Shown here piece by piece: positions 2,929 through 44,929 of a stretch of DNA of 53,056 bases. The stretch's first letter is position 1, and each line of letters opens with the position of its first letter. Origin of the DNA: a virus (Duplodnaviria; Caudoviricetes); IMG/VR virus record IMGVR_UViG_3300016478_000076, positions 1 to 53,056 of that record, one strand, 5' to 3'. Position numbers and translations under genes: made by a program. The notes below the pieces were generated by a model. That model saw only the letters and a program-made list of their open reading frames with translations. It did no database searches and was not told the origin of the DNA.

Positions 2929-3228
2929 CAAAAAATAAAGAGCCGTGTGGTTAATTAGCGAAGAAAAATTATAGGGGTTGCAACTTCCCTATAATTATCA
3001 ACCTTTACCTGTTGATTAGGTATGAAAGTACTTGTTACCAGATTATCGATGTCGATAGTGTTTCCCATATGTATAAAATCCTCCTTGTGAGATAGGCTTT
3101 CGCCAATGTTGTATTTTGTCATATACGGTCAAGTGGCAAGGGAATTTTATTATATGTTTTCTGGCTTTCTATTAAGTACATTCCTTTCTCAAGTATGTTA
3201 GTTCGAATTAAGTTTGGCTCTTTATTCA
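2929..3228 (-). ncRNA. Candidate ~300-nt structured early transcript with a 5'-3' closing helix
   Basis: Early promoter at 3232-3242. 11-bp perfect inverted repeat 2934-2944/3216-3226 followed by a U tract. Internal hairpins at 2967-2996, 2997-3016 and GGC-GAAA-GCC at 3095-3104. Confidence 0.45.
2955..3068 (-). CDS. 37-aa micro-peptide MGNTIDIDNLVTSTFIPNQQVKVDNYREVATPIIFLR
   Basis: SD AAGGAGG 11 nt upstream of the ATG; below the ORF-track cutoff. Confidence 0.5.
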   Translation of the reverse strand: MGNTIDIDNLVTSTFIPNQQVKVDNYREVATPIIFLR

Positions 3229-3231
3229 TCA

Positions 3232-3242
3232 TTATAGTATAT
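3232..3242 (-). promoter_or_regulatory. Early-type promoter ATATA(C/T)TATAA-N3-TGAA
   Basis: ATATACTATAATGATGAATAA on the minus strand. Confidence 0.65.
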
Positions 3243-3265
3243 GATTGTATATTTTTTTAAGGGAG

Positions 3266-3277
3266 AACAGTTAATTA
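3266..3277 (+). promoter_or_regulatory. Late-type promoter AACA-N6-TA
   Basis: AACAGTTAATTA, 22 nt before the ATG at 3300. Confidence 0.7.
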
Positions 3278-3299
3278 AATGAATTGAGGTGATTATAGA

Positions 3300-4562
3300 A
3301 TGAAACTTAAAATGAAAGTGAAACCAATTGGTAGTAGACTACATGTAAGAAGGGATGCAACCTTAGCATCTCCTGTTGTAAACTATCTATTATCAGGGGA
3401 TATCGTAATAGTAACTCAAGAAAAGAATGGCTGGGTTTATCATGATAAGGGTGGTTGGACTGCTGCTAACTATCTTGAATTAATTGAAAATATGGAAGGT
3501 GGATTTACTACTATACCAAGCTCGGTTATAAATCAAACCCCTGTTACTGGTAATGCTCCATATAATGAAACAATGTCTGATTTAGATGCCGTTAGAGCAG
3601 AAACTAGAGCAGCTAAACAAACTCAAGCTTCTCCACTAAAGCAGACTACTTTAAGTTCTGATATAAAGGATAGTTTAAAAGCTCATGGTATATATGATAG
3701 AGCTGAACTAGATAAGTTTAAATATTTTAAAAGATTTAATGCATTTGATCCTTATAATAGGATAAGAACTGTTAAGGAATATCTATTCTTTACTAAGCCA
3801 GATCTTAATATTTATTCTGATACTTCTGGAACTACATTACAACCTCAATTAGCATCAGACCCTATATTTCTAGAAATTCATAATAAGAACCCTAAGATAC
3901 TTCATCAATTACAGAGAAGTGTAACTGCTAATAAGGGTGACTTTATTACCTTATTATCTTGGACAGTAAAGAATACTATGGATATGCCTAATATCCAATC
4001 TAAAGATATAGACACTAGTGCAAATCAATTCGGTACTAGAGTATACTATAGAAAACATGGTATAGAGAGTGATGAAAATCATGAATTCTCTCTAGAGTTT
4101 TCTGAGAATAAATCTTTAGATACTTATTCATTTTTTAAGGCTTGGAGTCATTATAATGATTTAAAAAGTATCGGTGTAGTTTCTCCTAAAGACCAATATA
4201 GAGATAAGATGGAACTTCATGACCAAATAGCTGTATATAAAATTGTAGTAGATGAAATATCAGATATTATATTTTATGCTAGAGCTATAGGAGTATATCC
4301 TAAAGGTGCTCCAAGAGATAGCTTATCTCAAATATCTGAAGATATGTCTCATAACGTATCTTTTAAAGCTTTTGATGTAGAGGATTCTAATCCTATAATA
4401 ATTCATGAATTTAATAAACGGGCAAAACCTGGAACTGCTGCACCAATGTTCGATGTTTCTAAAGGACGCCCTGGTACTGCACTTGTTACTGGAGTTTATA
4501 TTGTAAGAGAAGAATATAAGAATAAACCAGGTTTCAGATATCAATTGAAATGGAGGTTATAA
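3300..4562 (+). CDS. SH3b domain + tail tube/baseplate hub-like protein
   Basis: N-terminal SH3b (LHVRRDA...GDIVIV..EKNGW....GGWTAANYL); C-terminal tube-like motifs (FSLEFSE, FKAW, IGVYPKG). Confidence 0.65.
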   Translation: MKLKMKVKPIGSRLHVRRDATLASPVVNYLLSGDIVIVTQEKNGWVYHDKGGWTAANYLELIENMEGGFTTIPSSVINQTPVTGNAPYNETMSDLDAVRAETRAAKQTQASPLKQTTLSSDIKDSLKAHGIYDRAELDKFKYFKRFNAFDPYNRIRTVKEYLFFTKPDLNIYSDTSGTTLQPQLASDPIFLEIHNKNPKILHQLQRSVTANKGDFITLLSWTVKNTMDMPNIQSKDIDTSANQFGTRVYYRKHGIESDENHEFSLEFSENKSLDTYSFFKAWSHYNDLKSIGVVSPKDQYRDKMELHDQIAVYKIVVDEISDIIFYARAIGVYPKGAPRDSLSQISEDMSHNVSFKAFDVEDSNPIIIHEFNKRAKPGTAAPMFDVSKGRPGTALVTGVYIVREEYKNKPGFRYQLKWRL

Positions 4563-4565
4563 AGT

Positions 4566-7172
4566 ATGACTAATACTACTCTAGGTACAGATACCTATAG
4601 AATACTCGAATATATACAAGAAGTAAAAAATGCTCATATTCCAGCAGATGAATCTAATACTTTACTTTTAGGTATATTTGGAGCATTTGCAGATATCGAT
4701 GCTACTCAGATTAGAAATAGTATAGCTATGAGTTCTGAATGGATGAATGAAATATTCCCTATAAGAGCTAGATTAGAAAAGAACTTATTGACTCATGCTA
4801 CTATGGCTAATATACAAGACCTTACAGCAGAACCTTCTATGATGGATGCTTTTATAGCTGTAAGAGAACAAGACTTATTAAATAATCTTAAGAATGACCA
4901 GATACTTATAGACCAAAAGACTAGAATTATGATTGGTACATTCGAATTCCATTTAGAGTTTGGAGTTATTATACAAAGACAGAAGAATTCTAATAATCAA
5001 AATATGTATGTAGCAAGGTATGATAATATTGGGAATATTACTAAGCTTACTACAGTAACTAACCCATATCTACCACCACCAGTAAGAACTAAAATAGGTA
5101 CAGAGAACTTTATATTTATAAAGGTTAGAATTAGACAAATGGAATTTACAGAGTTCCATAGAAAAGTTATTAGTAATGACTCTGTAGAGAATAAAACATT
5201 TGAATTTGATTTTGAGAATCAATTAGCCGACTTTAGTATAAATATAAATAGGAATGATGGTACTACTGTAGAATTAACTCCAGTATATGACAATACTCCT
5301 ATAGTAGATCCTACAGCTAAGTATTGCTACTATACTTATATAGGAACTAATGCAGTTAAAGTTAGATTTGCTAATACTTCTTATATACCAAGAATAAATG
5401 ATGAAATAAATGTTCATATTATTACTACTAAAGGAAGCAAAGGTAACTTTAATTATAAGGCTGATATTATAACTTACCCAGAGTCTGATACAGTATCTTA
5501 TAATAATCTTCCTATATTAGTTAGACCAATAAGTGAAGCATTCAATGGTCAAGATAAGAAGAGTATAGAAGATTTAAAGAAAGCTATTCCAAGAGAGCTA
5601 CTCTCTAGAGGAAGTCTTACTAGTGAAAAGGATTTAGATAACTTCTTTAACGTATTAAACGATAAGAATAATAAGTTAAAGTTTGTAAAGAAAATCCATA
5701 ATCAATTCACTAGAATATATTATTCATATCTATTATTAAAGGATAATAAAGAGAATATTATTCCATCTAATACTGTAGATATAAAACTAGTAGATACAGA
5801 CTTTGATAAGGTTGGAGACAGACTTATATTAAGACCTGGTGCAGCTTTACAATATGACAAGACTTTAGATAAATGTCTTAGAATACCAACTGTAGGGTTT
5901 AGTACTAACCATATAGATACTATAGAGAATGAAGGGTTTGTATATGCTACTCCTTTTACTACTGTAGTAACTAAATCTCCTCTTATAACTTCTACCTATC
6001 TTACTATCTTTGATAGAAGATATGACTTAGACTTTAAGTATATCAATGAAAACTCTTTCTTACAATTCATAGCAACTTATGCTAACTGGAAAAGAGAGTT
6101 ATTAAATAATAGAGATACTTATAAGATGGATATAGATATTACTCAGAATATAGATGAAGATTATAAGTTAGTAGAAACTGATGCTGATGGATTTATCACT
6201 GGTTCTAAGATTAAAGCTATAGCAGTATTCAAAGATACTAATGGTAATCCTTTTAGATGGTGCGAAGCTACTCCTCTATATTTTGATAAAGAAGCTAAGA
6301 CTTATAGATTTAGATTTGAGATAGTTACTGATGATGATATAGATAGAGATAGTTTTATTCATATAACTAATCTTAAAGACTTAGGTACTAATACTACATT
6401 ACATGGATTCTTTAAAGGTAATGGAACTCAAGTATCTATTCATATCTTAGCAGATATCGGTAATAGTTATAATAATAAAGAATTAGACTCTATAGTTCCA
6501 GGATTAGATAGACATACTCTATGTAATACTTATGATATAACTTCTGGAGTAGATTTCTTTATTAACTTCTCTAATATAATATCATCTACAGTAAACGTTA
6601 AGAGAGATGATATGAATAGTGCATGGTATTTCACTATAGATTCTGTACCAGTAGTAAGATATAGTTATCTACTACGTTCTGATAGAATATCTTATCTAGT
6701 AAACTATATAATGCAGAAGAAGTTCTTTCTAGATGCAGCTATATTATTACTAGAGAATCAATTCGGTATAGATTTTAAATTCTTTAATACGTATGGTCCT
6801 TCTAAGATTCATAAGATTGGACAAACTACTGATACTTTAGATAGAGTAAATCTAGAATTAGCATTTAGATTTAAGTTTGTTACTATGAGTAATAATGAGA
6901 CTTTTGTAGAAGCTATTAAGAAAGAGATTAAGAATTATATAGAGGATGTTGATAGAGATTACAATGTCCATATATCTAATATAATGACTCATCTTAAAGA
7001 GAAATTTACTTTCATTAGTTATATAGAATTCTTAGGTATTAACTCATATGACCCTATACACCAAAGTATTATAGAGAATATAGAACAGAAGTCTGTATAT
7101 GTACCAGAGTTTATCAACGTTGGTTCTAAATCTGCGGACTATGTGCCAGCTATACGTATTGTAGTGATTTAA
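4566..7172 (+). CDS. Baseplate wedge subunit (T4 gp6-like)
   Basis: Motifs TTKGSKGNF, NGQDKKSIEDLK and LTSEKDL resemble gp6/baseplate J families; tail gene context. Confidence 0.7.
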   Translation: MTNTTLGTDTYRILEYIQEVKNAHIPADESNTLLLGIFGAFADIDATQIRNSIAMSSEWMNEIFPIRARLEKNLLTHATMANIQDLTAEPSMMDAFIAVREQDLLNNLKNDQILIDQKTRIMIGTFEFHLEFGVIIQRQKNSNNQNMYVARYDNIGNITKLTTVTNPYLPPPVRTKIGTENFIFIKVRIRQMEFTEFHRKVISNDSVENKTFEFDFENQLADFSININRNDGTTVELTPVYDNTPIVDPTAKYCYYTYIGTNAVKVRFANTSYIPRINDEINVHIITTKGSKGNFNYKADIITYPESDTVSYNNLPILVRPISEAFNGQDKKSIEDLKKAIPRELLSRGSLTSEKDLDNFFNVLNDKNNKLKFVKKIHNQFTRIYYSYLLLKDNKENIIPSNTVDIKLVDTDFDKVGDRLILRPGAALQYDKTLDKCLRIPTVGFSTNHIDTIENEGFVYATPFTTVVTKSPLITSTYLTIFDRRYDLDFKYINENSFLQFIATYANWKRELLNNRDTYKMDIDITQNIDEDYKLVETDADGFITGSKIKAIAVFKDTNGNPFRWCEATPLYFDKEAKTYRFRFEIVTDDDIDRDSFIHITNLKDLGTNTTLHGFFKGNGTQVSIHILADIGNSYNNKELDSIVPGLDRHTLCNTYDITSGVDFFINFSNIISSTVNVKRDDMNSAWYFTIDSVPVVRYSYLLRSDRISYLVNYIMQKKFFLDAAILLLENQFGIDFKFFNTYGPSKIHKIGQTTDTLDRVNLELAFRFKFVTMSNNETFVEAIKKEIKNYIEDVDRDYNVHISNIMTHLKEKFTFISYIEFLGINSYDPIHQSIIENIEQKSVYVPEFINVGSKSADYVPAIRIVVI

Positions 7173-8148: not shown

Positions 8149-8185
8149 AAAAGAATGCCTGTAGGGATGTTCCCTACAGGCTTTT
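8146..8185. terminator. Bidirectional intrinsic terminator
   Basis: GCCTGTAGGGA-TGT-TCCCTACAGGC with A and T tails between convergent genes. Confidence 0.8.
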
Positions 8186-8588
8186 ACATGTGTACAATAA
8201 ATCCAGTATTAGTTAACGTTACATTGAATAATAAATCTGGTACATTTGAAGACATTATCTGGTCAAATGTAAATGGGAGAGATTTATATTCTAATTCTTT
8301 AGAAACTTTATCTCTATTATCTATTAGATATTTCCTTATAGCTGTAGCTACATACGTAGAATAGAATAGTGGATTATGGTCATATATTTTAATCTTCTTC
8401 AGTTCACTTATTCTATTTCTTACTACTATAAAACCTGGATTAAAAGTATCTATAATAAATAATCCAGAAGCTGCTAAACTACTAGCTATATCTCCAGTAG
8501 TTCTACTGTTATATACACTCATATTTAATAATATTTTAAAATCATAAGCAAATCCATCTGCATTTAAAATTTCATTATAAAGATTCAT
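8184..8588 (-). CDS. Hypothetical protein (134 aa)
   Basis: Starts immediately after the RusA stop; contains PFTFD. Confidence 0.7.
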   Translation of the reverse strand: MNLYNEILNADGFAYDFKILLNMSVYNSRTTGDIASSLAASGLFIIDTFNPGFIVVRNRISELKKIKIYDHNPLFYSTYVATAIRKYLIDNRDKVSKELEYKSLPFTFDQIMSSNVPDLLFNVTLTNTGFIVHM

Positions 8589-8589: not shown

Positions 8590-9309
8590 TTATTTCCCCT
8601 CCATTGTAAAGTATTCTACAGAGCAATTATTCTCTATAAAATCTTTTCTTTTTGATATTTGATTATATTGATATTTATTATAAAGCATATTTAAATAATA
8701 AATATCAATTTCTACTCTTGGTAATATACTTTGATACTTTTCTACTGTACCACGACATACAAAGCTATCATCTAACCATATAGTCATATTACTCATATCA
8801 CTATATTTCTTTCCTAAGTTATCCCAGTCAGGTTTAACCATTGGTAATTCTAAACCTATTTCCGCTAAGAACTTATCCTCCATCGGCATTGCATCTGGAG
8901 TTTTATGGAAAGTTCTATAAGTAATAATACAAGGTGTTGTTATAAGTGCTTGAAGTTCATCTAACTCCTCTCCGACAAGTCGTTTCATTCTTACATTATT
9001 CTCTTTTGCACCAGGGCTATAAACATGCACATATTGTGGCATTGCTTTTGCCATCTGATGATAATTAGATTTATTTACTATACGGTATCTATGTCTAGGA
9101 GTTCCTTCTGGAACTTCCATTAATACTAACCTTATATGTTTAAATATTAATGTTTCTAACATTAATTGTTTTTTCATAAGTATCTTTTCCATCTTGGAGT
9201 CTGATACATTATATTTTTTTACCATATATTCTAATCGTTCTTCTAAGTCTAAAGGTATTTCGGAATATTTTTCCTCATACTCTTGTAGTTTCTGTCTACT
9301 GGATTTCAA
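8590..9309 (-). CDS. rusA: RusA-family Holliday junction resolvase with N-terminal extension
   Basis: KPDWDNLGKKYSD...WLDDSFV...K...PRVEI catalytic signature. Confidence 0.85.
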   Translation of the reverse strand: MKSSRQKLQEYEEKYSEIPLDLEERLEYMVKKYNVSDSKMEKILMKKQLMLETLIFKHIRLVLMEVPEGTPRHRYRIVNKSNYHQMAKAMPQYVHVYSPGAKENNVRMKRLVGEELDELQALITTPCIITYRTFHKTPDAMPMEDKFLAEIGLELPMVKPDWDNLGKKYSDMSNMTIWLDDSFVCRGTVEKYQSILPRVEIDIYYLNMLYNKYQYNQISKRKDFIENNCSVEYFTMEGK

Positions 9310-21090: not shown

Positions 21091-21612
21091 TTATAACCAG
21101 CTTGGTGTCTTACTTTGAACTTTGATAGAAGTATGAGGTTTGATTGGAGCTTTTCCATTTTCATACATAGGCTGTCCGTCTGGAGAAATACCAACTTTCT
21201 TAGGATAAGTAGCAAATCCTTCTTTAACTTCTTTCTTAGAAAGAAATACGTTAGAAGTTTCTCTTCCACCTAGAGGAAGTTTTCTTCCAGTTTCGATATA
21301 AGTGTTGATAAACTCTTTAGAGATATCAACCATAGCCTGTGCTTCAGACTTTTTGAAAGTATGATCTTCCATAATCTTAGCAGCTTCATCTTTAGTTACT
21401 CCTACAGATGATGCTATTACAGATGAGCACATTTCTCTTGCTGCTTGAGAAGGACAAAAAGTTCCTACTACACCTGACTTATCGTATACATCCACTGAAT
21501 ACTCTTTGTCATTAAGCATAGCTCTCATTACTCTTTCTTCATCCTTAGCAGATGCTGATTGTTGTGACAAGTTGTCTTTAATGTCTTTTAATAAATCTTT
21601 AACTTGACTCAT
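21091..21612 (-). CDS. HU/IHF/TF1-like DNA-binding protein with N-terminal extension
   Basis: C-terminal half FKKSEAQAMVDISKEFINTYIETGRKLPLGG...beta-arm...IKPHTSIKV aligns by eye to the HU pattern. Confidence 0.5.
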   Translation of the reverse strand: MSQVKDLLKDIKDNLSQQSASAKDEERVMRAMLNDKEYSVDVYDKSGVVGTFCPSQAAREMCSSVIASSVGVTKDEAAKIMEDHTFKKSEAQAMVDISKEFINTYIETGRKLPLGGRETSNVFLSKKEVKEGFATYPKKVGISPDGQPMYENGKAPIKPHTSIKVQSKTPSWL

Positions 21613-21680: not shown

Positions 21681-21824
21681 TTATTGGTGTAATAACTTAT
21701 TATCAAAGTAAAATGGTGATACTGGTTTAGGTTTTTGTCCTTTCTGAATTATATAATCTTGTAATTCAGCATAGGTCATTTTAGTTAATTCTTGTATGAA
21801 TTGTACTGTTTTTTCATCTTTCAT
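21681..21824 (-). CDS. 47-aa small protein MKDEKTVQFIQELTKMTYAELQDYIIQKGQKPKPVSPFYFDNKLLHQ
   Basis: SD AAGGAGG 7 nt before the ATG; upstream promoters AACG-N6-TA and AACA-N6-TA; not in the ORF track. Confidence 0.75.
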   Translation of the reverse strand: MKDEKTVQFIQELTKMTYAELQDYIIQKGQKPKPVSPFYFDNKLLHQ

Positions 21825-27803: not shown

Positions 27804-28310
27804 ATGTCTAAACAAGAACCAGTTGAACCTTTTGTAATCGAGGAATGGAAAAGTATTCCTCCAGATAATTATTACCATATCAGTAATACTGGAAAAGTAA
27901 GATATGGCGTTCACAATTTTACAGATGTAGAGGTAAAGGTAAATAAGAATGGATATCCTTATTTTATTATGGGTACTTTTCCAGATAGTCAAGTAGCAAA
28001 ACCACATGATTTAATAATGGAATTGTTTGAACCTTATCCAGAAGTCTACGATGCTAGTAATTATTATGTAGGATTTAAAGATGATAATCCTAGTAATTTA
28101 ATGATTACTAATTTAAAACCTATTAAGAGAGCTAAAAAGTTCTCTAAGGAAAGAGTAAAGGTAAGAGATACTATAGAGAATGAATACATCTGGTTTGATA
28201 ACTATAAAGATGTAGCTGCATATGTAGGTTGTACTCTTAAATTCCTTAAGAAGTTTGCAGAAAATAGAGAAGATTTTTGTGTAAATGGATGTTGGGTAAA
28301 CTTTAAATAG
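27804..28310 (+). CDS. NUMOD4/HNH-like protein with a degenerate active site and a C-terminal HTH
   Basis: EEWKSI....YHISNTGKVR (NUMOD4), HDLIMELF, VGFKDDNPSNL...NL in place of VNHKDGNK.NN, and F...KDVA.YVG (NUMOD1-like). Confidence 0.7.
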   Translation: MSKQEPVEPFVIEEWKSIPPDNYYHISNTGKVRYGVHNFTDVEVKVNKNGYPYFIMGTFPDSQVAKPHDLIMELFEPYPEVYDASNYYVGFKDDNPSNLMITNLKPIKRAKKFSKERVKVRDTIENEYIWFDNYKDVAAYVGCTLKFLKKFAENREDFCVNGCWVNFK

Positions 28311-32787: not shown

Positions 32788-32805
32788 ATATATTATATTT
32801 ATGAA
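32788..32805 (+). promoter_or_regulatory. Early-type promoter
   Basis: ATATATTATATTTATGAA. Confidence 0.6.
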
Positions 32806-32818
32806 AGAGGTGATTATA

Positions 32819-33241
32819 ATGAACTTCGAGATATTCGACCAGTTACAACACAGAATAATGAACAAAAGAAATGGAGATATGTCATTTGAACATGTTATAT
32901 TATTTGAAGAAGTTCCAGCACTATATGCTGATTCTAGATTTGCTGTAGAAAGTGATAACTTCTTTACTGTAGATTCTAGAGAAGCAGATGCTGGAGATGA
33001 TTACTATGCTTCTATCGAGGACCGAGTATGGGTAAACTTTAGTGGAAGGTTTATAGTTCCGAATGAATATAAGCCTAAGTTATTAGAACTATCTGAAGAA
33101 CCTGATGGTAGAATTGGTATATATACATATACTGATGAGCCAGATAAAAGGGAGTATATTGATATTGATTTTCTTGGAGAATCTTCTGAATTTTCTCCAT
33201 TGATAATACCTTTTACATTTGACAATTCTAAGGAGGAATAA
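32819..33241 (+). CDS. Hypothetical early protein
   Basis: SD GAGGTG; SIEDRVWVNFSG motif; C-terminal LIIPFTFDN. Confidence 0.75.
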   Translation: MNFEIFDQLQHRIMNKRNGDMSFEHVILFEEVPALYADSRFAVESDNFFTVDSREADAGDDYYASIEDRVWVNFSGRFIVPNEYKPKLLELSEEPDGRIGIYTYTDEPDKREYIDIDFLGESSEFSPLIIPFTFDNSKEE

Positions 33242-36175: not shown

Positions 36176-36190
36176 ATGGAGGTGTTGAAA

Positions 36191-36976
36191 ATGCGTGACC
36201 CAATAGTAGATAGTTCAGAAATAATAATTAATACTGATATGCCTGAGATTATCAAGATAGATAATCTTCCCGAGTTTGATCTTCAAGATTATGATTTAGA
36301 TGATGAGAAAGATTTTAAGAAATATATTAAGGCTGTAAAACAAGCCTGTCGAGGGTCTATTGAATATCGTAAGTATATGAAATTCTTAAGAGAAAATGTT
36401 GATATGAATAAGTGTAGTTTCTATGAGAATGTAAATAATCTAGATACATTTGCTATTAAAATAGAAATACATCATGACCCATTTTCTTTAGAAGATATCG
36501 TCAGAATCGTATATAATAAGCGAAGATTCAATAATGAAGATTTAGATGTAGAGATGACTGCTAAGGAGACTATGTACTTACACTATAAACTTCTCGTAGG
36601 ATTAATTCCTTTGGCAGAGACTCCTCATGAGTTAGCTGAGAATGGTTATTTATTTATTCCAGTAGATAAAGTCTTTGGTAATTATAAAGAGTTTGTAAAC
36701 TTATATGAGCCATATATGACCGAATCACAATTATACATTTTTGACAATATATTAGAATACTCTAGAGGCTATAATGAAGCTGAAAATATGGGTGTTCTAG
36801 ATTTAAAATTTGTATATGTAGATATGAGTGGAGTTTATCGTCTACCACCATATGAAGTAATCAAAACATTAATGGAGACCCGAATTCAGGAGATTAAGAC
36901 ACAGTATTCGATTGATACCTCGAACATTAAGATAATCGAACCTGTAGAGCCATTTACATTTTTAAAGAAGGAGTGA
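36191..36976 (+). CDS. HNH-like fold protein, paralog of 46675..47385
   Basis: Y..Y..FL...C...IEIHH...L.DI...H...V..I.L.ETPHEL....LFI; SD GGAGGTG gives ATG at 36191. Confidence 0.6.
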   Translation: MRDPIVDSSEIIINTDMPEIIKIDNLPEFDLQDYDLDDEKDFKKYIKAVKQACRGSIEYRKYMKFLRENVDMNKCSFYENVNNLDTFAIKIEIHHDPFSLEDIVRIVYNKRRFNNEDLDVEMTAKETMYLHYKLLVGLIPLAETPHELAENGYLFIPVDKVFGNYKEFVNLYEPYMTESQLYIFDNILEYSRGYNEAENMGVLDLKFVYVDMSGVYRLPPYEVIKTLMETRIQEIKTQYSIDTSNIKIIEPVEPFTFLKKE

Positions 36977-37666: not shown

Positions 37667-37703
37667 CGAGTAAGTCAAAACTTACATAAAGGAGGTGTCA
37701 AAT

Positions 37704-38423
37704 ATGTTGACAATGTATGATATTTTTAATAGTGATACAATAAATATATTTACAGATGGTTCTATATATAAGAATCTCAACACAGGAGAAACTATTGGAA
37801 GTACAGGAGCTTTGATAATGCATGGTTCCGATTTCAATACAGCTTATTTAGATAATAGAACTGGGATATTAAGAAATACTACTAATAATGAGACAGAGAT
37901 TGAAAGTGTCTTATTAGGATTAAAATTAGCATCTGATTATATAAGAAGGACTAATATACCATACCATGTTAATCTATTCTCAGATTCTAAAATATGTATC
38001 GTAGGATTAAGAGAATGGATGTTTAACTGGATAAAGTGTACGTATTCTGGAGTATTATATAATTCATCTGGTAGCCCAGTAATGAATCAAGAAACTTTTA
38101 AGTCATGTGTATCGGTGATATTAGAATCTAATATGAATATATCTCTATATCATCAGAAAGGACACGTTGCTAATAGTGATGCTAGTATACAAAATGCTAT
38201 CAAAGTTTTTAAAGAATTAAATGGAGATAGTGTAGATTCTACATTTATAAAAACGGTATCATATTTCAATAACTTTGTAGATATCTTTACAAAGAATGAT
38301 TTAAAGAATAGAATAAATAATAAAGAGTTTGATACATTAGCTAAAGATGTAGTTGCACCATTCATACTAGACCCTGCAGGCATGGATATGAATAAGTATA
38401 AATATTTAATAAGTAAAAAATAA
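37704..38423 (+). CDS. rnhA: Ribonuclease HI
   Basis: IFTDGS, TTNNETE, FSDS, W...W, HQKGH and N..VD motifs. Confidence 0.9.
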   Translation: MLTMYDIFNSDTINIFTDGSIYKNLNTGETIGSTGALIMHGSDFNTAYLDNRTGILRNTTNNETEIESVLLGLKLASDYIRRTNIPYHVNLFSDSKICIVGLREWMFNWIKCTYSGVLYNSSGSPVMNQETFKSCVSVILESNMNISLYHQKGHVANSDASIQNAIKVFKELNGDSVDSTFIKTVSYFNNFVDIFTKNDLKNRINNKEFDTLAKDVVAPFILDPAGMDMNKYKYLISKK

Positions 38424-38434: not shown

Positions 38435-38851
38435 ATGAAAATATTGATAAAGAGAGATATGCTTACGAGATATATCGCTAATACCATGGTCTATTTTGTA
38501 AATGATATTGACTATAATTTATTAACGTATGTTACTATAAGAAGTAATCCTATGTTTGACGGAGATGTTCATAATATTGAGTTAATCTATACTAGCCCTA
38601 ATAAACCTATGATTCCTTTAATATGTAATGAGTTAGTCAGAACTGATAAGAAGACTAAGCTAAATAATACTTTTATTACTATTCCGTATACAGATTATAT
38701 TATAGTAAATAGAGTAAAGCTTATCAAATTATGTATTAAGACATTAAAAGGTTTATTGCAAGGTATAGATAATAGCGAATATCATTTAGAGCTATTAGAA
38801 GGATTTAATATTCGCCATCATATAAGAGAAAGAAGAAGGGGGTATTATTAA
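38435..38851 (+). CDS. Hypothetical protein (138 aa)
   Basis: SD AAGGAG; operon position. Confidence 0.7.
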   Translation: MKILIKRDMLTRYIANTMVYFVNDIDYNLLTYVTIRSNPMFDGDVHNIELIYTSPNKPMIPLICNELVRTDKKTKLNNTFITIPYTDYIIVNRVKLIKLCIKTLKGLLQGIDNSEYHLELLEGFNIRHHIRERRRGYY

Positions 38852-39672
38852 TGGATAAGAATATGGATTTGATATTGAAACTAAGAATGCTACTTACTCA
38901 TTATAAGCACAATAGCACTATACCTAAAGTATCATTCTTTGATAACTTTGTAAAAGGATATGCAGATTCAGATAAAGTTATAAGAGATTTATATAATAAT
39001 AATCTTATAAATGATTATGAATTATCTTTACTTAATACTTTAAAGCTTACTACTTTAAAACCATCATGTGGTTCTCCAGATGAAGTAGTATTATATCTAA
39101 AAGATAGAAATATAGTAGCTCTAACTTTAGAGATGTATAATAATTCTAATGGATTAGATGAATTATTATATTATATAAACTCTAATGTTAAACCTAGAAA
39201 GAGATCTGACCTAGAATATAATACCAAATGTCTGCAGATTATACCATATATTAATGTGGTATATAAAGGTGAAACTCTTCTTCTTAAAAAGATTAAGGAT
39301 GGAGATAGAACCAAAGGAAAGTATGATTTCCCTGCTGGGCATTGGAGTGTAACAGATAAGACTATTCAAGATTGTATTAGAAAAGAACTATTTGAAGAGT
39401 TAGGAATAGATCAATATAAAATTAAAAGCTCTATATTCCGTGGGGCAATACCCCTAAGTAATGATATCTTCTCTGTAAGTTATTATCACTTAGGGTTAAT
39501 ATATACTGTCACTTTACATGATGATGCTGAGATATTTAATGCTGAACCTGAGAAACATCAAATATCTTATCTATCTGAATTAACGGTAGAAGATATCTGT
39601 AAATTTGACAATTGGCTAGTATATAGCCTAAATAAAATTAAGGAGGAAGATTATGAAAAATTTGAAGACTAG
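38851..39672 (+). CDS. Nudix hydrolase with N-terminal extension
   Basis: FPAGH......TIQDCIRKELFEELGI Nudix box. Confidence 0.85.
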   Translation: MDKNMDLILKLRMLLTHYKHNSTIPKVSFFDNFVKGYADSDKVIRDLYNNNLINDYELSLLNTLKLTTLKPSCGSPDEVVLYLKDRNIVALTLEMYNNSNGLDELLYYINSNVKPRKRSDLEYNTKCLQIIPYINVVYKGETLLLKKIKDGDRTKGKYDFPAGHWSVTDKTIQDCIRKELFEELGIDQYKIKSSIFRGAIPLSNDIFSVSYYHLGLIYTVTLHDDAEIFNAEPEKHQISYLSELTVEDICKFDNWLVYSLNKIKEEDYEKFED

Positions 39673-40321
39673 TTTTGCCGTAGTACCATTTACTTTTGAC
39701 AACGGGGCTGTACCACAAGAAATTAATGTTATGCACAATGGTGAGCATACTCCATTAAATGATGCATATAATTATGCATACAGGAATAGTGTATTCAATC
39801 TATATGCTGGAAATATTAATGGAGAGGAAGACCTTAATACACTTTGGGGCGATAGACGTATTAGTTGCTCTACTGATGTTTTACGTAATACTTTGGATAA
39901 TCATATAGACTACTTAATACTAGATACTATCAATAGAATGGAATTGACTAAATATCATCCTAGTATTGATATTCCTAGATTAAATTCAAAAGCCACTAGA
40001 ATTAGACATTGCGAAGCGTTTGATGAGGCTATGTATGCTATTTCTGATAGATATAGAGACTCTGACACGTATTCAATTGAGAGAAAAGCTTTCAATCTAT
40101 CTCATGGTGAAAGCTTCCTTGAAGCAGTAGAGATAGTATTAACTAGTAAAATATTTATATTTCTAATGGAAGAAGGATTAAGCTCTCAAGATGCTACTAA
40201 TATCAGTAATACATTTAGAACTGTTATTCACCCTGGATTAGTTGCTATGTTTAATAATGTTGTATCTGTATACAATCCTATTATAACTGGATTTACTATT
40301 AGTTTAGAGGAGGGTAAATAA
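39653..40321 (+). CDS. Hypothetical protein (222 aa)
   Basis: SD AAGGAGG; N-terminal AVVPFTFDN. Confidence 0.75.
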   Translation: MKNLKTSFAVVPFTFDNGAVPQEINVMHNGEHTPLNDAYNYAYRNSVFNLYAGNINGEEDLNTLWGDRRISCSTDVLRNTLDNHIDYLILDTINRMELTKYHPSIDIPRLNSKATRIRHCEAFDEAMYAISDRYRDSDTYSIERKAFNLSHGESFLEAVEIVLTSKIFIFLMEEGLSSQDATNISNTFRTVIHPGLVAMFNNVVSVYNPIITGFTISLEEGK

Positions 40322-40994: not shown

Positions 40995-41204
40995 ATGGAA
41001 GAAAGTAAAAACTTATTTAATTCAATTCACATAAAAGATAAGAACATCGAAGTGTATAATGGCTGTGATAGATGTAATAGACTATTCGGTCCAAACTTAG
41101 AGAATATAAAACAAGAACCTGTCGTAATTGACGGAGAAGACATAATGAAAGTTACCTGTTTGAAATGTGGGTATGAGCACCACTATCGAAACTGGAGAGT
41201 CTAA
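40995..41204 (+). CDS. Small C4 zinc-ribbon protein
   Basis: CDRC...CLKCG. Confidence 0.75.
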   Translation: MEESKNLFNSIHIKDKNIEVYNGCDRCNRLFGPNLENIKQEPVVIDGEDIMKVTCLKCGYEHHYRNWRV

Positions 41205-41227
41205 AAACTGAGAAAGGACGGTCATAT

Positions 41228-42034
41228 ATGAATATCATTAATAGCAATATGACTCCAAATGTAGCGGGCTATGGTGCTGGATATATTCCACCTAGCCCAA
41301 TTGGATCTACTTTAAACTTAGGGGGTTTAGGGTATAATAATCAAATGCAAATGAATACAATGCAGACTATGGGTGGATATTATAATCCTTATGGTGGTAC
41401 TATCTATAACCCATATCTAATGAGACAACAACAAGAAAGAGCAATGGCTATACAAAGACAACAGATGGAGCAACAAGCTAACATTATGAAGTCTTTATCT
41501 CGTATAGTAAACTCTAGTATGTCTGATGAAGAATTTGAAGAGTATTCAAAAGTATATCAGATGCAATATGAGCCTAATGAAGAACAACAATACATTCAAC
41601 AACAGAACAAGTTTGATATGATGGCTCATTATAATCCAGAACAACATAGACCTGTTGACCCTAGAACTATTAGAAATATCTATCTTATAAATCAGGAGAT
41701 AGAAAAGCAGAAATCTAGGTTTCCAGGTGATATGTCGTTACCTGAGTACTTAGAAGTTTCTGGTGATTTATTATACGAAGCTTTTATAGAAGAAGGTACA
41801 AGAAAGCAAAAAGATCTGAGTAGAACGTATAATAGTCAGAAATATAGAGACCTTATAGATATGCATAGTAATGCAACTTCATATTTTAATACTCTATATT
41901 CACAGGCTAAGATTAGACCTAATGTTACTATAGATGATATGGAAGTACGACTTCCAAAAGACTTAGAGAACTCTGAGTATCATCAACGGCAACGGAAGTT
42001 TGTTCAACAACTTATGCAAGGTGGTGGTATCTAA
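41228..42034 (+). CDS. Protein with a Q/N/Y/G/M-rich low-complexity N-terminus
   Basis: GGYYNPYGGTIYNPY, QQQERAMAIQRQQMEQQ. Confidence 0.75.
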   Translation: MNIINSNMTPNVAGYGAGYIPPSPIGSTLNLGGLGYNNQMQMNTMQTMGGYYNPYGGTIYNPYLMRQQQERAMAIQRQQMEQQANIMKSLSRIVNSSMSDEEFEEYSKVYQMQYEPNEEQQYIQQQNKFDMMAHYNPEQHRPVDPRTIRNIYLINQEIEKQKSRFPGDMSLPEYLEVSGDLLYEAFIEEGTRKQKDLSRTYNSQKYRDLIDMHSNATSYFNTLYSQAKIRPNVTIDDMEVRLPKDLENSEYHQRQRKFVQQLMQGGGI

Positions 42035-43443
42035 TGGCTAGAATAAATCCAATGGATATATTATATGGATATAAAAAGAATACTGTATCACCAGCAGATT
42101 TTATGTTCGACAATTTAGTAGCTCCACCTCTATTATCACTACTTACTATACAAGATATAGCTGCTCTAAATTATATAGCTACATCTTTAAAATATAGTGG
42201 TGCAATAGAGAAGAAGTATAAAGCTATGGATGCTGTATTATATCCTAGAGGTTTCAGAAAGTTAGCTACTGGAACTAATAGAAGAGCATATACACATCCT
42301 GAGTTTAAGATTATATTAAAAGTTGCTTTGGATTCTGTAGGAATATCTGATAGCCCTAGAGAATATCAAAATCAATTTCTAATAAAACCTTTCTGTACTA
42401 AAGTATTTGAAGTATCGCCTTGTGGTACTGTAGCTTTAGTAGAAAGAGTCAATCCAATAACTTCTAAAGCAGAGTTTCTATCTGTAGCAGAAGATATCTT
42501 CCATCTAATTAATAAGAAGATAATTGGACAATATGTACTAGAAGACATTGGAACTAAGTTCTTTATGAATTGGGGTTTAAGAGAAGGTGGCTTCGGTCCA
42601 GTATTATTAGACTTTCCATATGTATATGAACTAGATGGTTCTAAGCTAAGATGTAATGCTCTGATTCCAGAGAACAACTTCTTACCCTGTGGAGGGTCAG
42701 TAGATTATGATGATGGGTTTAACAAACTAGTATGTACAAAGTGTGGCAGAGAGTATTCTGCTCGTGAAATTAGTCAACCTGCTAAGCAAGGTGGACATTC
42801 AAATATTATTATTGAAAAAGATATAGAGGAGGAATTTCCAGTGATTATTCAAATTAAAAAGAATGGCGAAGTTATTAGACAATCTGAACCAGAATCAGAA
42901 AGAATAGTTATTCCTGAAAGAAAAGTAGACCATGTTCCAAAAAGAACTGGACTACGTAGAAATGAAGAGTTGGTAAGGACAGTAGAGAGTGACATACTTG
43001 GAACTATTATTATTAAGAAAAAGGTTAAGTCTAATAAAAATAATAATAATAGAAACAATAATAGAAATCAAAATAATCCTAAGCCTGAAGAGCAAGTAGA
43101 AGATATCTACAAGCATGGAATACCAACAGCAGTTGTTCATAAAGAAGTAGTAGAAGATGAACCTGTTGAAGAAGAGGTGATTGATAATGAGTATGTTGAA
43201 GAACCTATTAACTCAGAAGAACCTGATGATGTTGAAGTTGGGGTTGAAGAAACTGATCCAAATGAAGAATATATCTCAGAAGAATTAAATATTAAAGAGT
43301 CAGATTTCAATGAACCTGCTGATGAAGATGAGCCAACAGAGGCTAATGAGTACGCTGACAAATATAGTCATCTAATTCCTGCTGATGAAGAAGCTCCAAC
43401 AAGAGAGAAAATTATTAAGAAAAATAATAATGACTACTATTAA
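42034..43443 (+). CDS. Protein kinase-like protein with a zinc ribbon and an acidic tail
   Basis: G-loop LATGTNRRAY, ILKVA Lys, helix-C Glu (REY), ED.....NWG catalytic loop, LLDF; C...C...CTKC; D/E-rich tail. Confidence 0.7.
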   Translation: MARINPMDILYGYKKNTVSPADFMFDNLVAPPLLSLLTIQDIAALNYIATSLKYSGAIEKKYKAMDAVLYPRGFRKLATGTNRRAYTHPEFKIILKVALDSVGISDSPREYQNQFLIKPFCTKVFEVSPCGTVALVERVNPITSKAEFLSVAEDIFHLINKKIIGQYVLEDIGTKFFMNWGLREGGFGPVLLDFPYVYELDGSKLRCNALIPENNFLPCGGSVDYDDGFNKLVCTKCGREYSAREISQPAKQGGHSNIIIEKDIEEEFPVIIQIKKNGEVIRQSEPESERIVIPERKVDHVPKRTGLRRNEELVRTVESDILGTIIIKKKVKSNKNNNNRNNNRNQNNPKPEEQVEDIYKHGIPTAVVHKEVVEDEPVEEEVIDNEYVEEPINSEEPDDVEVGVEETDPNEEYISEELNIKESDFNEPADEDEPTEANEYADKYSHLIPADEEAPTREKIIKKNNNDYY

Positions 43444-43458
43444 AAAGGAGTAAATATT

Positions 43459-43995
43459 ATGGAATCTAAAATACAAGATTACACATTTAAGATATTGGGT
43501 ATTATTGAAATATGTGGTGGAGAGTATAAAGAAAATATACTTCAGAGTGAAGATTCTAATTATGTAATAACTGCATTATGTATAGAGACTCAAAGATATA
43601 TAGCAATAAAGATTCCAGAACTTTATATATCAGATAGTGGTATTATACAGAGAAGTTTATTGGTTGCTCATGAATTAGCTATTGATAAAACAGACTATGG
43701 CTCTTTAAAAATAGGAGACATTATAAAAGATGGTAAAATTACTAAGGACCAAGAGTTCACTTTTACTATTACTGATATTATTAATGTGAGAAATCCATAC
43801 AATCATGCTATTCCTGGAGAAAACTATACGATAGAAGCTAAATGTCGTGAGACTGGTAGAGGAGTTACTATCGAAGTAACTAGAAGTACTATTAGTGATA
43901 AAGTATTTATAAAGAAAGAATTATTAGAAGCTCATAAAAGATTAGAAGAATCTTCTAATCTTGCTCAGAATATACAAATAGGTGATATCTTATAA
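43459..43995 (+). CDS. Hypothetical protein with two tandem copies of a ~75-aa domain
   Basis: F.I..I...Y.I.A.C.ET...I.I...ISD...I...LL.AH...IGDI occurs twice. Confidence 0.75.
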   Translation: MESKIQDYTFKILGIIEICGGEYKENILQSEDSNYVITALCIETQRYIAIKIPELYISDSGIIQRSLLVAHELAIDKTDYGSLKIGDIIKDGKITKDQEFTFTITDIINVRNPYNHAIPGENYTIEAKCRETGRGVTIEVTRSTISDKVFIKKELLEAHKRLEESSNLAQNIQIGDIL

Positions 43996-44010
43996 AAATT
44001 TGAGGAGGAA

Positions 44011-44244
44011 ATGAAAATGGAAAAGAGATTTAGAATAATCAATGTTATGCAAGAGTCAGTAGGACAAGGAAGTGCAAGAGCATTTATACATGCGAAATGC
44101 ATGATCTCTGGTCAACCTCTAGCTATTACCATTCCTAAAGGTTGTTTAACTAATAAGAAATTTATCAGAAACGCATTATATGAAGCTTTAGAAGAGACTA
44201 AAAAATATCATGCTATTGATGTAAATATTGGAGATACTATATAA
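44011..44244 (+). CDS. Single-copy paralog of the same domain
   Basis: FRIINV...FIHAKC..SG..LAITIP....NKKFI...L.EA...NIGDTI. Confidence 0.75.
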   Translation: MKMEKRFRIINVMQESVGQGSARAFIHAKCMISGQPLAITIPKGCLTNKKFIRNALYEALEETKKYHAIDVNIGDTI

Positions 44245-44263
44245 TAAGAAGGAAGTGAAAACT

Positions 44264-44929
44264 ATGCTGAAAGGGAATATTTATGTCACTAACGACATGT
44301 CAATAGCGACACAATTATCAGCAAACCATCTTATAGTTTGTATAAGTGGAGACACTCAAAACTATAAAGAATTTATAAATGCTACCAATGCTTCGGTAGC
44401 ATCTTTACTACTTCCACCATATGAAGCTGTACAGCGAGAAATGGACGGAGATATGAATGGATTTATGCATATATATTTTGCTCATCTTGGTAGCCCTGAT
44501 TGTACTGCTTTTATAGCAATACTATTAAGAGCTTTATTCAACGGTAAGAATATCTTAATATATCTTACTAAAGATGAGAGTAAACTTAACTATATTGATT
44601 ACTTCAATAAGTTCCTTACAGATATCTATGGATTAACTATGGGTATTATAGGAGTAAGCGATTGTGTTTTCGATATAGCAAAAGCTCCACTAGTTTTAGG
44701 AACAATGTTACTAAACGATGTCTTAACGTCAGAAGAATATCTAGCTTCAATGCCTGGTCCGATACCACCGTATCAATCAGAAGTAATTGTAGCTAAATTA
44801 ATGGCTGATCTTAGACCGTATGGTATTGTATCTCTTCCTGATGCCTTTAAATATTTTAATGAGCACATAGAAGATAAACTAAAACTAACAACAGAGCTAA
44901 TAATTCCATTTAGGAGTGTGGGACCATAA
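44264..44929 (+). CDS. Hypothetical protein, weakly DUF488-like
   Basis: LLPPYEA...F..IY.AHL...GKNILI...YGL; start chosen by SD. Confidence 0.65.
   Translation: MLKGNIYVTNDMSIATQLSANHLIVCISGDTQNYKEFINATNASVASLLLPPYEAVQREMDGDMNGFMHIYFAHLGSPDCTAFIAILLRALFNGKNILIYLTKDESKLNYIDYFNKFLTDIYGLTMGIIGVSDCVFDIAKAPLVLGTMLLNDVLTSEEYLASMPGPIPPYQSEVIVAKLMADLRPYGIVSLPDAFKYFNEHIEDKLKLTTELIIPFRSVGP

What the first reader, a model, noticed from the sequence alone, without database searches (positions are those of the whole stretch)
2955..44929. Shared short peptide motif (hydrophobic-x-P-F-x-F/I/L-D/E) in 8-9 unrelated proteins: candidate phage docking code
Seen in sequence: PVSPFYFDN (C-term of the 47-aa peptide, 21681), LIIPFTFDN (C-term, 32819), AVVPFTFDN (N-term, 39653), EPVEPFTFL (C-term of the HNH-like protein, 36191), EPVEPFVIE (N-term of the degenerate HNH, 27804), VVAPFILD (near C-term of RNase H), LIIPFRS (C-term, 44264), SLPFTFDQ (8184), and weakly VATPIIF (37-aa peptide, 2955). 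The host proteins are otherwise unrelated and the motif is almost always near a terminus. Codons differ at synonymous positions (gaacctgtagagccattt vs gaaccagttgaacctttt; ccttttacatttgacaat vs ccatttacttttgacaac), which points to selection on the peptide rather than recent DNA duplication. Established parallel: T4 gp43, gp55 and gp33 share a terminal clamp-binding peptide. Inference: a common binding tag for one hub (sliding clamp, SSB, RNAP, or a replication-compartment import/localisation factor). The micro-peptides, which are little more than the motif, could be adaptors or competitors.
Basis: partly seen in the sequence, partly recalled or inferred. Interest (0 to 1): 0.88.

Follow-up and report, generated by a model that had tools for sequence, protein, structure and literature searches.

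The report
Shared terminal peptide tag, jumbo phage
Several unrelated proteins of this uncultured giant phage carry the same short peptide at one end, and related phages put their own versions of such a tag on their DNA- and RNA-handling enzymes, so it looks like an address label read by one still unknown receptor.

Summary
The window is about a fifth of an uncultured jumbo phage distantly related to Bacillus phage AR9. Five proteins carry h-h-P-F-[TYV]-[FI]-[DLE] within 12 residues of a terminus, against about 0 in shuffles. They share nothing else, and synonymous codons differ.

A matrix trained only on tails from other genomes picks the window's tags as its top hits. Orthologues keep the tag.

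Three near-complete relatives each have their own flavour at protein ends:
- CPFx[IV]: 11 sites, 10 terminal.
- FMxR: 40 sites, 26 terminal.
- I-x-F-[VL].

In the relatives the orthologous clients carry the local flavour at the same end. They include a DnaB-like helicase, an SF2 helicase, an Mre11-like nuclease, non-virion RNA polymerase subunits and HNH endonucleases. AR9 and LPJP1 show no enrichment.

Best reading: a co-evolving docking or sorting tag for one phage-encoded receptor. The receptor is not identified. No clamp or SSB family was detected.

The parts
21681..21824 (-). 47-aa micro-protein: short helical N-part plus C-terminal tag ...KPKPVSPFYFDNKLLHQ* (tag codons 21716 down to 21699)
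   Evidence: A matrix trained on foreign genomes scores it 17.8 bits. A family-like small ORF lies just upstream of 10 of 15 distinct relatives of the 173-aa gene; an eleventh is cut by a locus edge, and G001 has one too. The relatives' tails are LVEPIIFFDD, LIEPMIFFDN, IRPFVYLR, TKPFICL, LFVFQWDN and PYCPFMIIHEK.
21091..21612 (-). 173-aa protein of unknown function, always encoded directly downstream of the micro-protein and divergent from the RNA polymerase beta gene. This is context and a receptor candidate, not shown to bind.
   Evidence: Synteny; alignment A3. No PHROG hit. No blastp hit in AR9 or LPJP1. The Atlas search was uninformative.
32801..33241 (+). 146-aa protein (weak LPD28 hit) with C-terminal tag ...SPLIIPFTFDNSKEE* (33209-33226)
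   Evidence: It is the highest matrix score in the window, 19.2 bits. Homologues at 92-96% identity keep the tail. The G001 orthologue at 32% identity ends ...LLHCPFYIDDKK*.
39653..40321 (+). 222-aa protein with N-terminal tag MKNLKTSFAVVPFTFDNG... (39686-39703) on a 26-residue extension
   Evidence: AGGAGG lies 6 nt before the ATG. The homologue at 91% identity keeps the tag. The homologue at 63% identity is annotated from the residue that aligns with M27, so it lacks the extension.
36176..36976 (+). 266-aa PHROG 12252 protein (orthologue of AR9 g242) with C-terminal tag ...IIEPVEPFTFLKKE* (36950-36964)
   Evidence: The AlphaFold2 core is confident but the tail is not: residues 245-255 are below pLDDT 50, the last blocks score 51-65, and there is no secondary structure. 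Of the 119 other listed homologues, 46 have a P-h-x-aromatic/aliphatic anchor in the last 16 residues, against 10% of interior windows; the split is 46 of 90 at 245 aa or longer and 0 of 29 shorter.
27804..28310 (+). 168-aa HNH/NUMOD4 endonuclease with N-terminal tag MSKQEPVEPFVIEE directly before the NUMOD4 'WK' (27828-27842)
   Evidence: matrix score 13.7 bits. An HNH family traced from G001 carries each lineage's own flavour at the N-terminus (MKELYTPFTIK, MKTFMTRIP, MYRPITFENE), while AR9's copy starts at the NUMOD4 motif. That blastp found no counterpart of this family among the window's called proteins, so orthology with 27804-28310 is not shown.
44228..44929 (+). 221-233-aa protein ending ...TELIIPFRSVGP*: moderate case, with a family-wide conserved tail h-h-x-P-h-h-x-G-h
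   Evidence: The tails of distinct orthologues are listed (for example LQKPFVRGV*, FSPVFRVKT*, LIDPLVSI*). Matrix score 7.7 bits.
2955..3068 (-). 37-aa peptide ending ...EVATPIIFLR*: weak case. It fits the generalised P-h-x-F tail, but its conservation was not shown.
   Evidence: strong ribosome-binding site score; matrix score 7.2 bits. No hit in G001 by tblastn at 1e-3.
37695..38423 (+). RNase H (type 1) with a C-terminal extension. VVAPFILD (38358-38372) lies 21 residues from the end: weak or uncertain case.
   Evidence: Pfam RNase_H 2e-12. Only the closest orthologues keep a similar segment (PFNID, PIRFSLD), while the last 12 residues (..KYxxLI..) are more widely conserved.
8184..8588 (-). 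134-aa protein with SLPFTFDQ (8276 down to 8259), 30 residues from the C-terminus: an exact core, but not terminal
   Evidence: No homologue found in the loci or in G001.
42034..43443 (+). 469-aa RIO/Bud32-like kinase fold with a Cys4 ribbon. Its N-terminal SPADFMFDN (about 42088-42114) is a look-alike, probably structural, and not counted as a tag.
   Evidence: Foldseek matches Rio2 at 6.7e-5 with probability 1.00. The residue 21-30 block has pLDDT 87. [FY]x[FYW][DEN] is present in 25 of 31 orthologues aligned from the N-terminus, whatever that lineage's tag flavour.

Best explanation
The motif is a short linear 'address tag' on flexible N- or C-terminal ends of otherwise unrelated proteins. 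Where functions are known, these proteins act on DNA or RNA.

It belongs to a system shared by a clade of uncultured jumbo phages related to AR9. Each lineage uses its own tag sequence:
- this window: h-h-P-F-[TY]-F-D-N
- relative G001: [YR]-C-P-F-x-[IV]
- relative G005: K-x-F-M-x-R-[DEV]
- relative G003: I-x-F-[VL]

Each lineage places its tag at the same end of orthologous clients.

Most likely mechanism (inferred, not shown): the tag inserts as an extended peptide into a groove of one phage-encoded receptor that co-evolves with it. This gathers replication, recombination and non-virion transcription enzymes, and the homing endonucleases that exploit them, at the site where phage DNA is copied and read. 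The 47-aa micro-protein, a helical stub plus the tag, would be an adaptor or a competitor.

Shown: the tag exists, is non-random, is terminal, is selected at the peptide level, is retained in orthologues, and changes in concert across clients between lineages. One modelled tail is low-confidence and has no secondary structure. Inferred: binding, a single receptor, and that the receptor is phage-encoded.
For: In the window:
- Enrichment and terminal position.
- Peptide-level rather than DNA-level conservation.
- No other similarity among the carriers.

Cross-genome validation: a matrix trained on tails from other genomes ranks the 146-aa C-terminus, the micro-protein C-terminus and the HNH N-terminus as the top three independent hits. 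At 12 bits or more, 4 sites were observed against a shuffle mean of 0.43, and 0 of 300 shuffles reached 4.

Ortholog retention:
- 36176-36976 family tails: 46 of 119, against 10% of interior windows.
- Micro-protein family in 10 of 15 neighbourhoods, plus G001.
- The 146-aa orthologue at 32% identity keeps a tail of the G001 flavour.
- Homologues at 91-99% identity keep the tags.

Lineage flavours:
- G001: CPF.[IV] occurs 11 times in called proteins, 10 within 12 residues of an end and 1 at residue 26. The shuffle mean was 0.08 with a maximum of 2 in 500.
- G005: FM.R occurs 40 times, 26 terminal. The shuffle mean was 3.5 with a maximum of 8 in 300, and codons vary.
- Unbiased terminal-versus-interior pattern scans return CPF and FM.R as the top patterns.
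- Each flavour is enriched only in its own genome, and none is enriched in AR9 or LPJP1.

The same clients carry the tag at the same end. Their identities are divergent DnaB, divergent family B DNA polymerase, RNA polymerase Rpb2 domain 6, ResIII helicase and HNH/NUMOD4. AR9 g089 and g226 are annotated as non-virion RNA polymerase subunits.

The modelled tail of 36176-36976 has low confidence and no secondary structure.
Against: - No receptor was identified and no binding was shown.
- The strict window pattern is not enriched in relatives. FxFDN as DNA matches 2-5 times per genome, about the same as the reversed control. PFxFD has 0 matches in LPJP1.
- The G003 flavour is degenerate. The unbiased scan did not recover it, and its regex was written from the ortholog table.
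- All four regexes were defined after seeing the data.
- In the relatives' 20-kb loci the matrix is only modestly enriched at C-termini: 5 observed against 0.95 in shuffles. It is not enriched at N-termini (1 against 1.35), and interior hits also exceed shuffles (27 against 13.55).
- Three window cases (RNase H, 8184-8588, the 37-aa peptide) are weak.
- Gene calls and start codons come from my own heuristic caller.
- The window holds only about 21% of its genome, so its full client list is unknown.
Confidence: 0.6

Rival explanations
1. The receptor is a host protein, such as the host sliding clamp, SSB partner pockets, RNA polymerase or a chaperone. The different tag flavours would reflect different hosts rather than a co-evolving phage receptor.
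For: - No phage clamp or SSB family is detectable, so these phages may lean on host factors.
- In AR9 and LPJP1 the orthologous DnaB-like helicase ends in ...DSGIPF* and ...EDDIPF*. As I recall, this resembles the C-terminal tip of bacterial SSB, a host-interaction motif.
Against: - As recalled, the known host hub motifs (clamp QL[SD]LF, SSB tip DDDIPF-COOH) are conserved across bacteria. The four flavours here are chemically very different from them and from each other.
- The tags work at N-termini and are followed by further residues. That does not fit the free-carboxylate SSB-tip mode.
- The hosts of these contigs are unknown.
Confidence: 0.12
2. The tag is a degron. An AAA+ protease (ClpXP, Lon, or a phage enzyme) would recognise the exposed hydrophobic or aromatic end and time the removal of these enzymes.
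For: - The tags sit at the extreme ends: residues 2-8 or the last 5-12. As recalled, terminal degrons sit in such positions.
- The tags are rich in aromatic and hydrophobic residues.
Against: - The clients include enzymes presumably needed through late infection: orthologues of the non-virion RNA polymerase subunits and the replicative helicase.
- One identical motif at both ends, replaced in concert across lineages, is not the known pattern of ClpX or Lon signals (recalled).
- No protease was linked to the tag.
Confidence: 0.08
3. The tag is a substrate-docking motif for the clade-specific RIO-like kinase (42034-43443). It would copy the kinase's own N-terminal F-x-F-D-N segment, in the way AGC-kinase hydrophobic motifs and PIF peptides use one pocket (recalled analogy).
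For: - The kinase fold match.
- Its N-terminal DFMFDN lies in the confident part of the model and nearly equals the window tag PFTFDN.
- The kinase is shared by the tag-bearing genomes and has no blastp hit in AR9 or LPJP1, and no tblastn hit in the phage collection.
Against: - The kinase segment stays [ED]-F-x-[FYW]-D in lineages whose tags are CPFxI, FMxR or IxFV. The resemblance is therefore specific to the window lineage and may be coincidence.
- Thirty-nine other proteins show the same presence/absence pattern.
Confidence: 0.08
4. There is no common function. The similarities would be chance, leftovers of shared ancestry or module shuffling, or a DNA-level signal such as a promoter or a nuclease site that happens to be translated.
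For: - The window alone gives only moderate statistics for the strict 5-mer: 5 of 1000 shuffles.
- Eleven 6-mers are shared by two proteins each, and I estimate about 8 by chance from composition.
- FDN codons spell TTGACA.
Against: - The foreign-trained matrix and the ortholog retention.
- 11 against 0.08 and 40 against 3.5 in relatives, almost all terminal.
- Synonymous codon variation.
- The DNA pattern is found only in frame.
- There is no room for a promoter before the next gene.
Confidence: 0.04

Closest known systems
T4-type clamp-binding peptides (gp43, gp55, gp33 C-termini binding gp45) and PIP-box / beta-clamp motifs (recalled from the literature)
   Same: One short hydrophobic or aromatic peptide sits on flexible N- or C-terminal ends of many unrelated proteins. 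These include both replication and transcription components, so a single hub can recruit them.
   Different: - No beta-clamp, PCNA or gp45 family was detected in three near-complete relatives, AR9 or the window (the gp45 control was silent). A comparative study says this phage group lacks a classical clamp (PMC7824862, passages read).
- The sequences do not fit QxxLxxFF, QL[SD]LF or LDFL-type consensus (recalled).
- The tag sequence is replaced wholesale between related lineages.
Bacterial SSB C-terminal tip (acidic run + I-P-F-COOH) (recalled)
   Same: It has an I/V-P-F core. The orthologous helicase of AR9 and LPJP1 ends in ..GIPF* and ..DDIPF*, which suggests where the tag may have come from.
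   Different: - In SSB one hub carries the tail and many clients carry pockets. Here many clients carry the tail.
- The window tags are followed by 4-10 more residues or sit at N-termini, so a free Phe carboxylate cannot be required.
Cargo-sorting peptides: encapsulin cargo-loading peptides, microcompartment encapsulation peptides, peroxisomal PTS1/PTS2, T4 capsid-targeting sequence (all recalled)
   Same: A short terminal label, usable at either end, marks a defined set of proteins for one destination.
   Different: - No compartment or shell is known for AR9-like phages. The review read in passages says they lack chimallin (PMC13282480).
- In relatives the clients include orthologues of non-virion RNA polymerase subunits, so capsid packaging is unlikely.
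Protein import into the Chimalliviridae phage nucleus (Imp1/PicA)
   Same: The same class of cargo, namely helicases, RNase and non-virion RNA polymerase, is selected for one place (PMC13282480, passages).
   Different: [quoted passage not shown] Here the signal would be a linear terminal peptide, in a different phage group.

Membership tests
Clamp-binding peptide system (T4 gp45 / PIP-box / beta-clamp motif) | A ring-shaped sliding clamp is encoded or used | tested here: not met
   PF00712 and PF00705 give 0 of 5 records (G001, G003, G005, AR9, window), with positive controls ringing. PF02916 also gives 0 of 5, but its control was silent, so that search is uninformative. A divergent clamp or the host clamp is not excluded.
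Clamp-binding peptide system (T4 gp45 / PIP-box / beta-clamp motif) | Peptide matches a known consensus (QxxLxxFF, QL[SD]LF, [ST]LDFL[FY]; recalled) | tested here: not met
   The window tags are h-h-P-F-[TY]-F-D-N. The relatives have CPFx[IV], KxFMxR[DEV] and IxF[VL].
Clamp-binding peptide system (T4 gp45 / PIP-box / beta-clamp motif) | Motif on flexible termini of several replication and transcription proteins | tested here: met
SSB C-terminal tip motif | Acidic run ending in I/L-P-F at the very C-terminus with a free carboxylate (recalled) | tested here: not met
   The window tags are internal to the tail or N-terminal. The feature is met only by the AR9 and LPJP1 helicase tails.
Capsid-targeting / virion-packaging signal (T4 CTS type) | Carriers are virion-internal proteins | tested here: not met
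   In the relatives, carriers include orthologues of AR9 g089 and g226, which are annotated as non-virion RNA polymerase subunits, together with a DnaB-like helicase. The window's own carriers include RNase H and an HNH endonuclease. No PHROG 'virion structural protein' of the window carries a strong tag.
Chimallivirus nuclear import cargo | Phage encodes chimallin and Imp1/PicA; cargo is recognised by surface patches | not tested
   No chimallin query was available to me. The review passages state that AR9-like phages lack chimallin. A clade-specific FtsZ-like protein exists in G001.
Short linear motif (SLiM) in the general sense | Short, in a disordered region, convergent in unrelated proteins, conserved in orthologues | tested here: met
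   Low-confidence, unstructured tail; unrelated carriers; ortholog retention. Binding to a partner was not testable here.

The most novel reading that the evidence does not exclude
These phages use a linear N- or C-terminal signal peptide that licenses nucleic-acid enzymes, and selfish homing endonucleases, to enter or attach to a phage-built replication and transcription compartment or scaffold. That structure might be organised with the clade-specific FtsZ-like protein. The signal and its receptor would be rewritten together in each lineage. This would be the first sequence-encoded protein-sorting code of a bacteriophage.
Probability: 0.25. Interest if true: 0.95.

Novelty: new variant of a known kind. 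Interest (0 to 1): 0.8.

Why it matters
Hub-and-tag recruitment is known from T4 and from cellular replication. A tag carried by 10 to 26 proteins per genome, usable at either end and replaced in concert between related phages, has not been described in the papers I could search. Two full-text searches found nothing on it, and the jumbo-phage review passages state that nucleus import in other jumbo phages lacks terminal signals.

If the reading holds, it gives three things:
- A way to read from sequence alone which proteins of an uncultured jumbo phage work together on its DNA, including many small proteins of unknown function.
- A direct handle, the peptide, for fishing out the unknown organising receptor.
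- A natural example of a sorting or docking code and its reader evolving together, useful for engineering orthogonal recruitment tags.

It also shows homing endonucleases acquiring the local tag, which would be a new facet of how selfish genes adapt to their phage.

Tried and rejected
- **Promoter or DNA-element reading.** Rejected. TTGACA inside the FDN codons is 25 nt from the next start, and the DNA pattern matches only the three in-frame sites.
- **Close relatives in the phage collection and IMG/VR.** Single-protein queries found none. A profile of the PHROG 12252 family then gave 80 loci.
- **Strict window motif in relatives.** Not enriched. This led me to look for other flavours instead.
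- **Function of 36176-36976.** AlphaFold2 plus Foldseek against the PDB found no match at E of 0.001 or better.
- **Profile searches against PDB sequences.** The kinase-like family gave only low-complexity hits. The micro-protein gave nothing meaningful.
- **ESM Atlas for the 173-aa protein.** No usable hit.
- **Complex prediction.** The 173-aa family with the micro-protein family returned 'no answer'. I count it neither for nor against binding.
- **Clamp and SSB families.** Not detected.
- **De novo terminal patterns in AR9, LPJP1 and G003.** They gave only lysine-rich or low-complexity patterns, a paralogous KWG-repeat family in G003, and a local paralogue cluster in AR9 (..ILESL). None of these is a tag.
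- **Kinase N-terminal FMFDN.** Considered as a tenth tag and set aside as probably structural.
- **Supplementary files.** None were opened, and none bears on a claim made here.

Full report
**What the window is.** The window is a 53-kb contig with 30% G+C. It is the whole record held for this virus, and CheckV rates it 21% complete. Its 1438-aa RNA polymerase beta-like protein is 29-33% identical to those of Listeria phage LPJP1, the Staphylococcus jumbo phages, Bacillus phages PBS1 and Goe21 (AR9-like), and Yersinia phiR1-37. No near-identical phage record exists in the collection. It is therefore a fragment of an uncultured jumbo phage of the group that carries two multisubunit RNA polymerases.

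**Checking the observation.**
- In my 49 called proteins (16,512 aa), PFTFD occurs in three proteins with 0.0042 expected. Only 5 of 1000 within-protein shuffles produced an equally improbable 5-mer in three or more proteins.
- The post-hoc pattern PF[TYV][FI][DLE] occurs 6 times, 5 of them within 20 residues of an end. Forty shuffles gave means of 0.03 and 0.00.
- Of 29 PF dipeptides, 6 lie within 12 residues of a terminus.
- The carriers share no other similarity.
- The DNA version of the motif, allowing 3 mismatches, matches only the three in-frame sites.
- The TTGACA that FDN codons spell lies 25 nt before the next start codon, so a promoter reading fails.

**Independent validation from other genomes.** The 266-aa protein 36176-36976 (PHROG 12252) has 983 database homologues, many on contigs of 180-265 kb.
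- Of the 119 listed homologues other than the 99%-identical twin, 46 end in a P-h-x-(aromatic/aliphatic) tail within the last 16 residues. Only 10% of interior 16-residue windows match. All 46 are among the 90 proteins of 245 aa or more, and none among the 29 shorter ones.
- A matrix built from those 45 distinct foreign tails, scanned over the window's proteins, ranks first the C-terminus of the 146-aa protein (19.2 bits). Next come the C-terminus of the 47-aa micro-protein (17.8), the N-terminus of the HNH endonuclease (13.7) and the homologous tail itself (12.9).
- Four hits of 12 bits or more compare with a shuffle mean of 0.43, and none of 300 shuffles reached four.
- AlphaFold2 models the protein's core with confidence but its tail with low confidence and without secondary structure.

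**Retention in orthologues.**
- Homologues at 91-99% identity keep the tags.
- The homologue of the 222-aa protein at 63% identity is annotated without the 26-residue N-terminal extension that carries the tag. This fits a modular add-on, but I could not see its DNA.
- The complete relative G001 is collinear with the window at 29-56% protein identity. Its orthologue of the 146-aa protein ends ...LLHCPFYIDDKK*, and its micro-protein ends ...KPYCPFMIIHEKIIK*.
- The micro-protein is a real, conserved gene. A family-like small ORF lies directly upstream of the 173-179-aa gene in 10 of 15 distinct neighbourhoods. An eleventh is cut by the locus edge, and four show none.
- The micro-protein has a conserved helical part (F-I-x-x-L...E-I-x-x-Y-I-x-x-K-G-K-P) and a variable aromatic tail.

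**The wider system.** I fetched three near-complete relatives, together with AR9 and LPJP1, and looked for patterns enriched in protein ends over interiors without using prior knowledge of the motif.
- G001 returns CPF: 11 of 13 occurrences are terminal, uncorrected p = 3e-8. G005 returns FM.R: 25 terminal proteins out of 40 occurrences, p = 7e-12.
- In the window, F.FDN was the top terminal-enriched pattern: 4 of 4 occurrences terminal, uncorrected p = 3.5e-4, in the scan that allowed patterns seen in four proteins.
- In G001, CPF.[IV] occurs 11 times in called proteins. Ten lie within 12 residues of an end and one at residue 26. The shuffle mean is 0.08.
- In G005, FM.R occurs 40 times, 26 within 20 residues of an end. 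Typical forms are M-K-x-F-M-x-R-D at the start and ...K-V-F-M-K-R-D-K-x* at the finish, with varied codons. The shuffle mean is 3.5.
- G003 has a more degenerate I-[SRKT]-F-[VLE]: 26 occurrences, 14 terminal, against shuffle means of 15.7 and 2.5. I read this pattern from the ortholog table, and the unbiased scan did not find it.
- Each flavour is enriched only in its own genome. None is enriched in AR9 or LPJP1.

**Who carries the tags.** In the relatives, orthologous proteins carry the local flavour at the same end. No counterpart of the helicases, nuclease or polymerase subunits lies in the window itself.

| Client | End | Tags seen |
|---|---|---|
| DnaB-like helicase | C | MYCPFSIA*, KKFMTRVPA*, AIRFVS* |
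| SF2 helicase | C | local flavour in each lineage |
| Orthologue of AR9's Mre11/SbcD-like g002 | N | local flavour in each lineage |
| Orthologue of AR9 g089 | C (G001 and G003; the G005 orthologue ends ...SKLKRD* without the local tag) | local flavour |
| Orthologue of AR9 g226 | N | local flavour in each lineage |
| PHROG 12252 protein | C | local flavour in each lineage |
| HNH endonucleases | N | local flavour in each lineage |

- The AR9 record annotates g089 and g226 as non-virion RNA polymerase subunits.
- Pfam and PHROG name further clients as divergent family B DNA polymerase and RNA polymerase beta pieces.
- The AR9 and LPJP1 orthologues lack such tags. Their helicases end in ...DSGIPF* and ...EDDIPF*, which recalls the tip of bacterial SSB and hints at the tag's origin.

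**Mechanism.** The concerted replacement of the tag across many clients, its position on free ends, and the nucleic-acid-centred client list point to one receptor that reads the tag and co-evolves with it.
- Virion packaging is unlikely, because non-virion polymerase subunits are clients.
- A classical clamp or a bacterial-type SSB is not detectable (one search is uninformative). This agrees with a comparative study that notes the absence of a classical clamp in this group (PMC7824862, passages).
- Forty proteins are shared by the three relatives and have no hit in AR9 or LPJP1. They include the 173-aa partner of the micro-protein, a RIO-like kinase and an FtsZ-like protein. These are the receptor candidates.
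- I could not test them further. My one complex prediction gave no answer.

**Limits.**
- The regexes are post hoc.
- My gene caller is heuristic.
- G003 is weak.
- Matrix enrichment in the 20-kb loci of relatives is modest.
- Binding is inferred throughout.

Noticed in passing
window 42034-43443 (+): The 469-aa protein has a RIO2/Bud32-like protein-kinase fold (Foldseek 6.7e-5, probability 1.00). Its family alignment shows invariant Lys, Glu, Asp and Asn positions, which I read as kinase-like (not tested), plus a four-cysteine ribbon. It has no tblastn match in the phage collection and no blastp hit in AR9 or LPJP1.
   Followed up: partly
L122 (AR9 3583-5268) and LPJP1 204109-205881 (L145): The DnaB-like helicases of AR9 and LPJP1 end in ...DSGIPF* and ...EDDIPF*. 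This looks like the C-terminal tip of bacterial SSB (recalled), so it may be mimicry of the host SSB tail by a phage helicase.
   Followed up: no
G001 22876-24030 (L084:2876-4030): An FtsZ-like protein (phmmer against PDB FtsZ, 1.7e-12) is encoded by the tag-bearing relatives and has no blastp hit in AR9 or LPJP1.
   Followed up: partly
window 46675-47385 (-) and 36176-36976 (+): There are two paralogues of PHROG 12252. The family has conserved His and Cys residues and an unknown fold, and every AR9-like phage record shows two places. Only the 266-aa copy has the tagged tail.
   Followed up: partly
window 11257-20859 (-): A 3200-aa protein has an endolysin or peptidase-like domain at residues about 2564-2718 and glycine-rich hydrophobic stretches near residues 1470-1540. 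It is probably a virion-associated giant protein.
   Followed up: no
window 30767-31921 (+): There is a thymidylate-synthase-like domain (PHROG 85, 6.8e-34, residues 207-346). The comparative study read in passages ties uracil-DNA in PBS1-type phages to the absence of such enzymes, so this phage may use a different base chemistry.
   Followed up: no
G003 41365-47305 (L111): A tandem cluster of about nine paralogous genes carries KWG[FL]IN repeats. It produced a false 'terminal motif' signal in the unbiased scan.
   Followed up: yes
window 8590-9309 (-); 38851-39672 (+); 26859-27224 (+): A RusA-like resolvase (PHROG 140, 2.7e-15), a NUDIX-domain protein (Pfam 1.2e-6) and a small acetyltransferase-like protein. 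None of them carries a tag.
   Followed up: no
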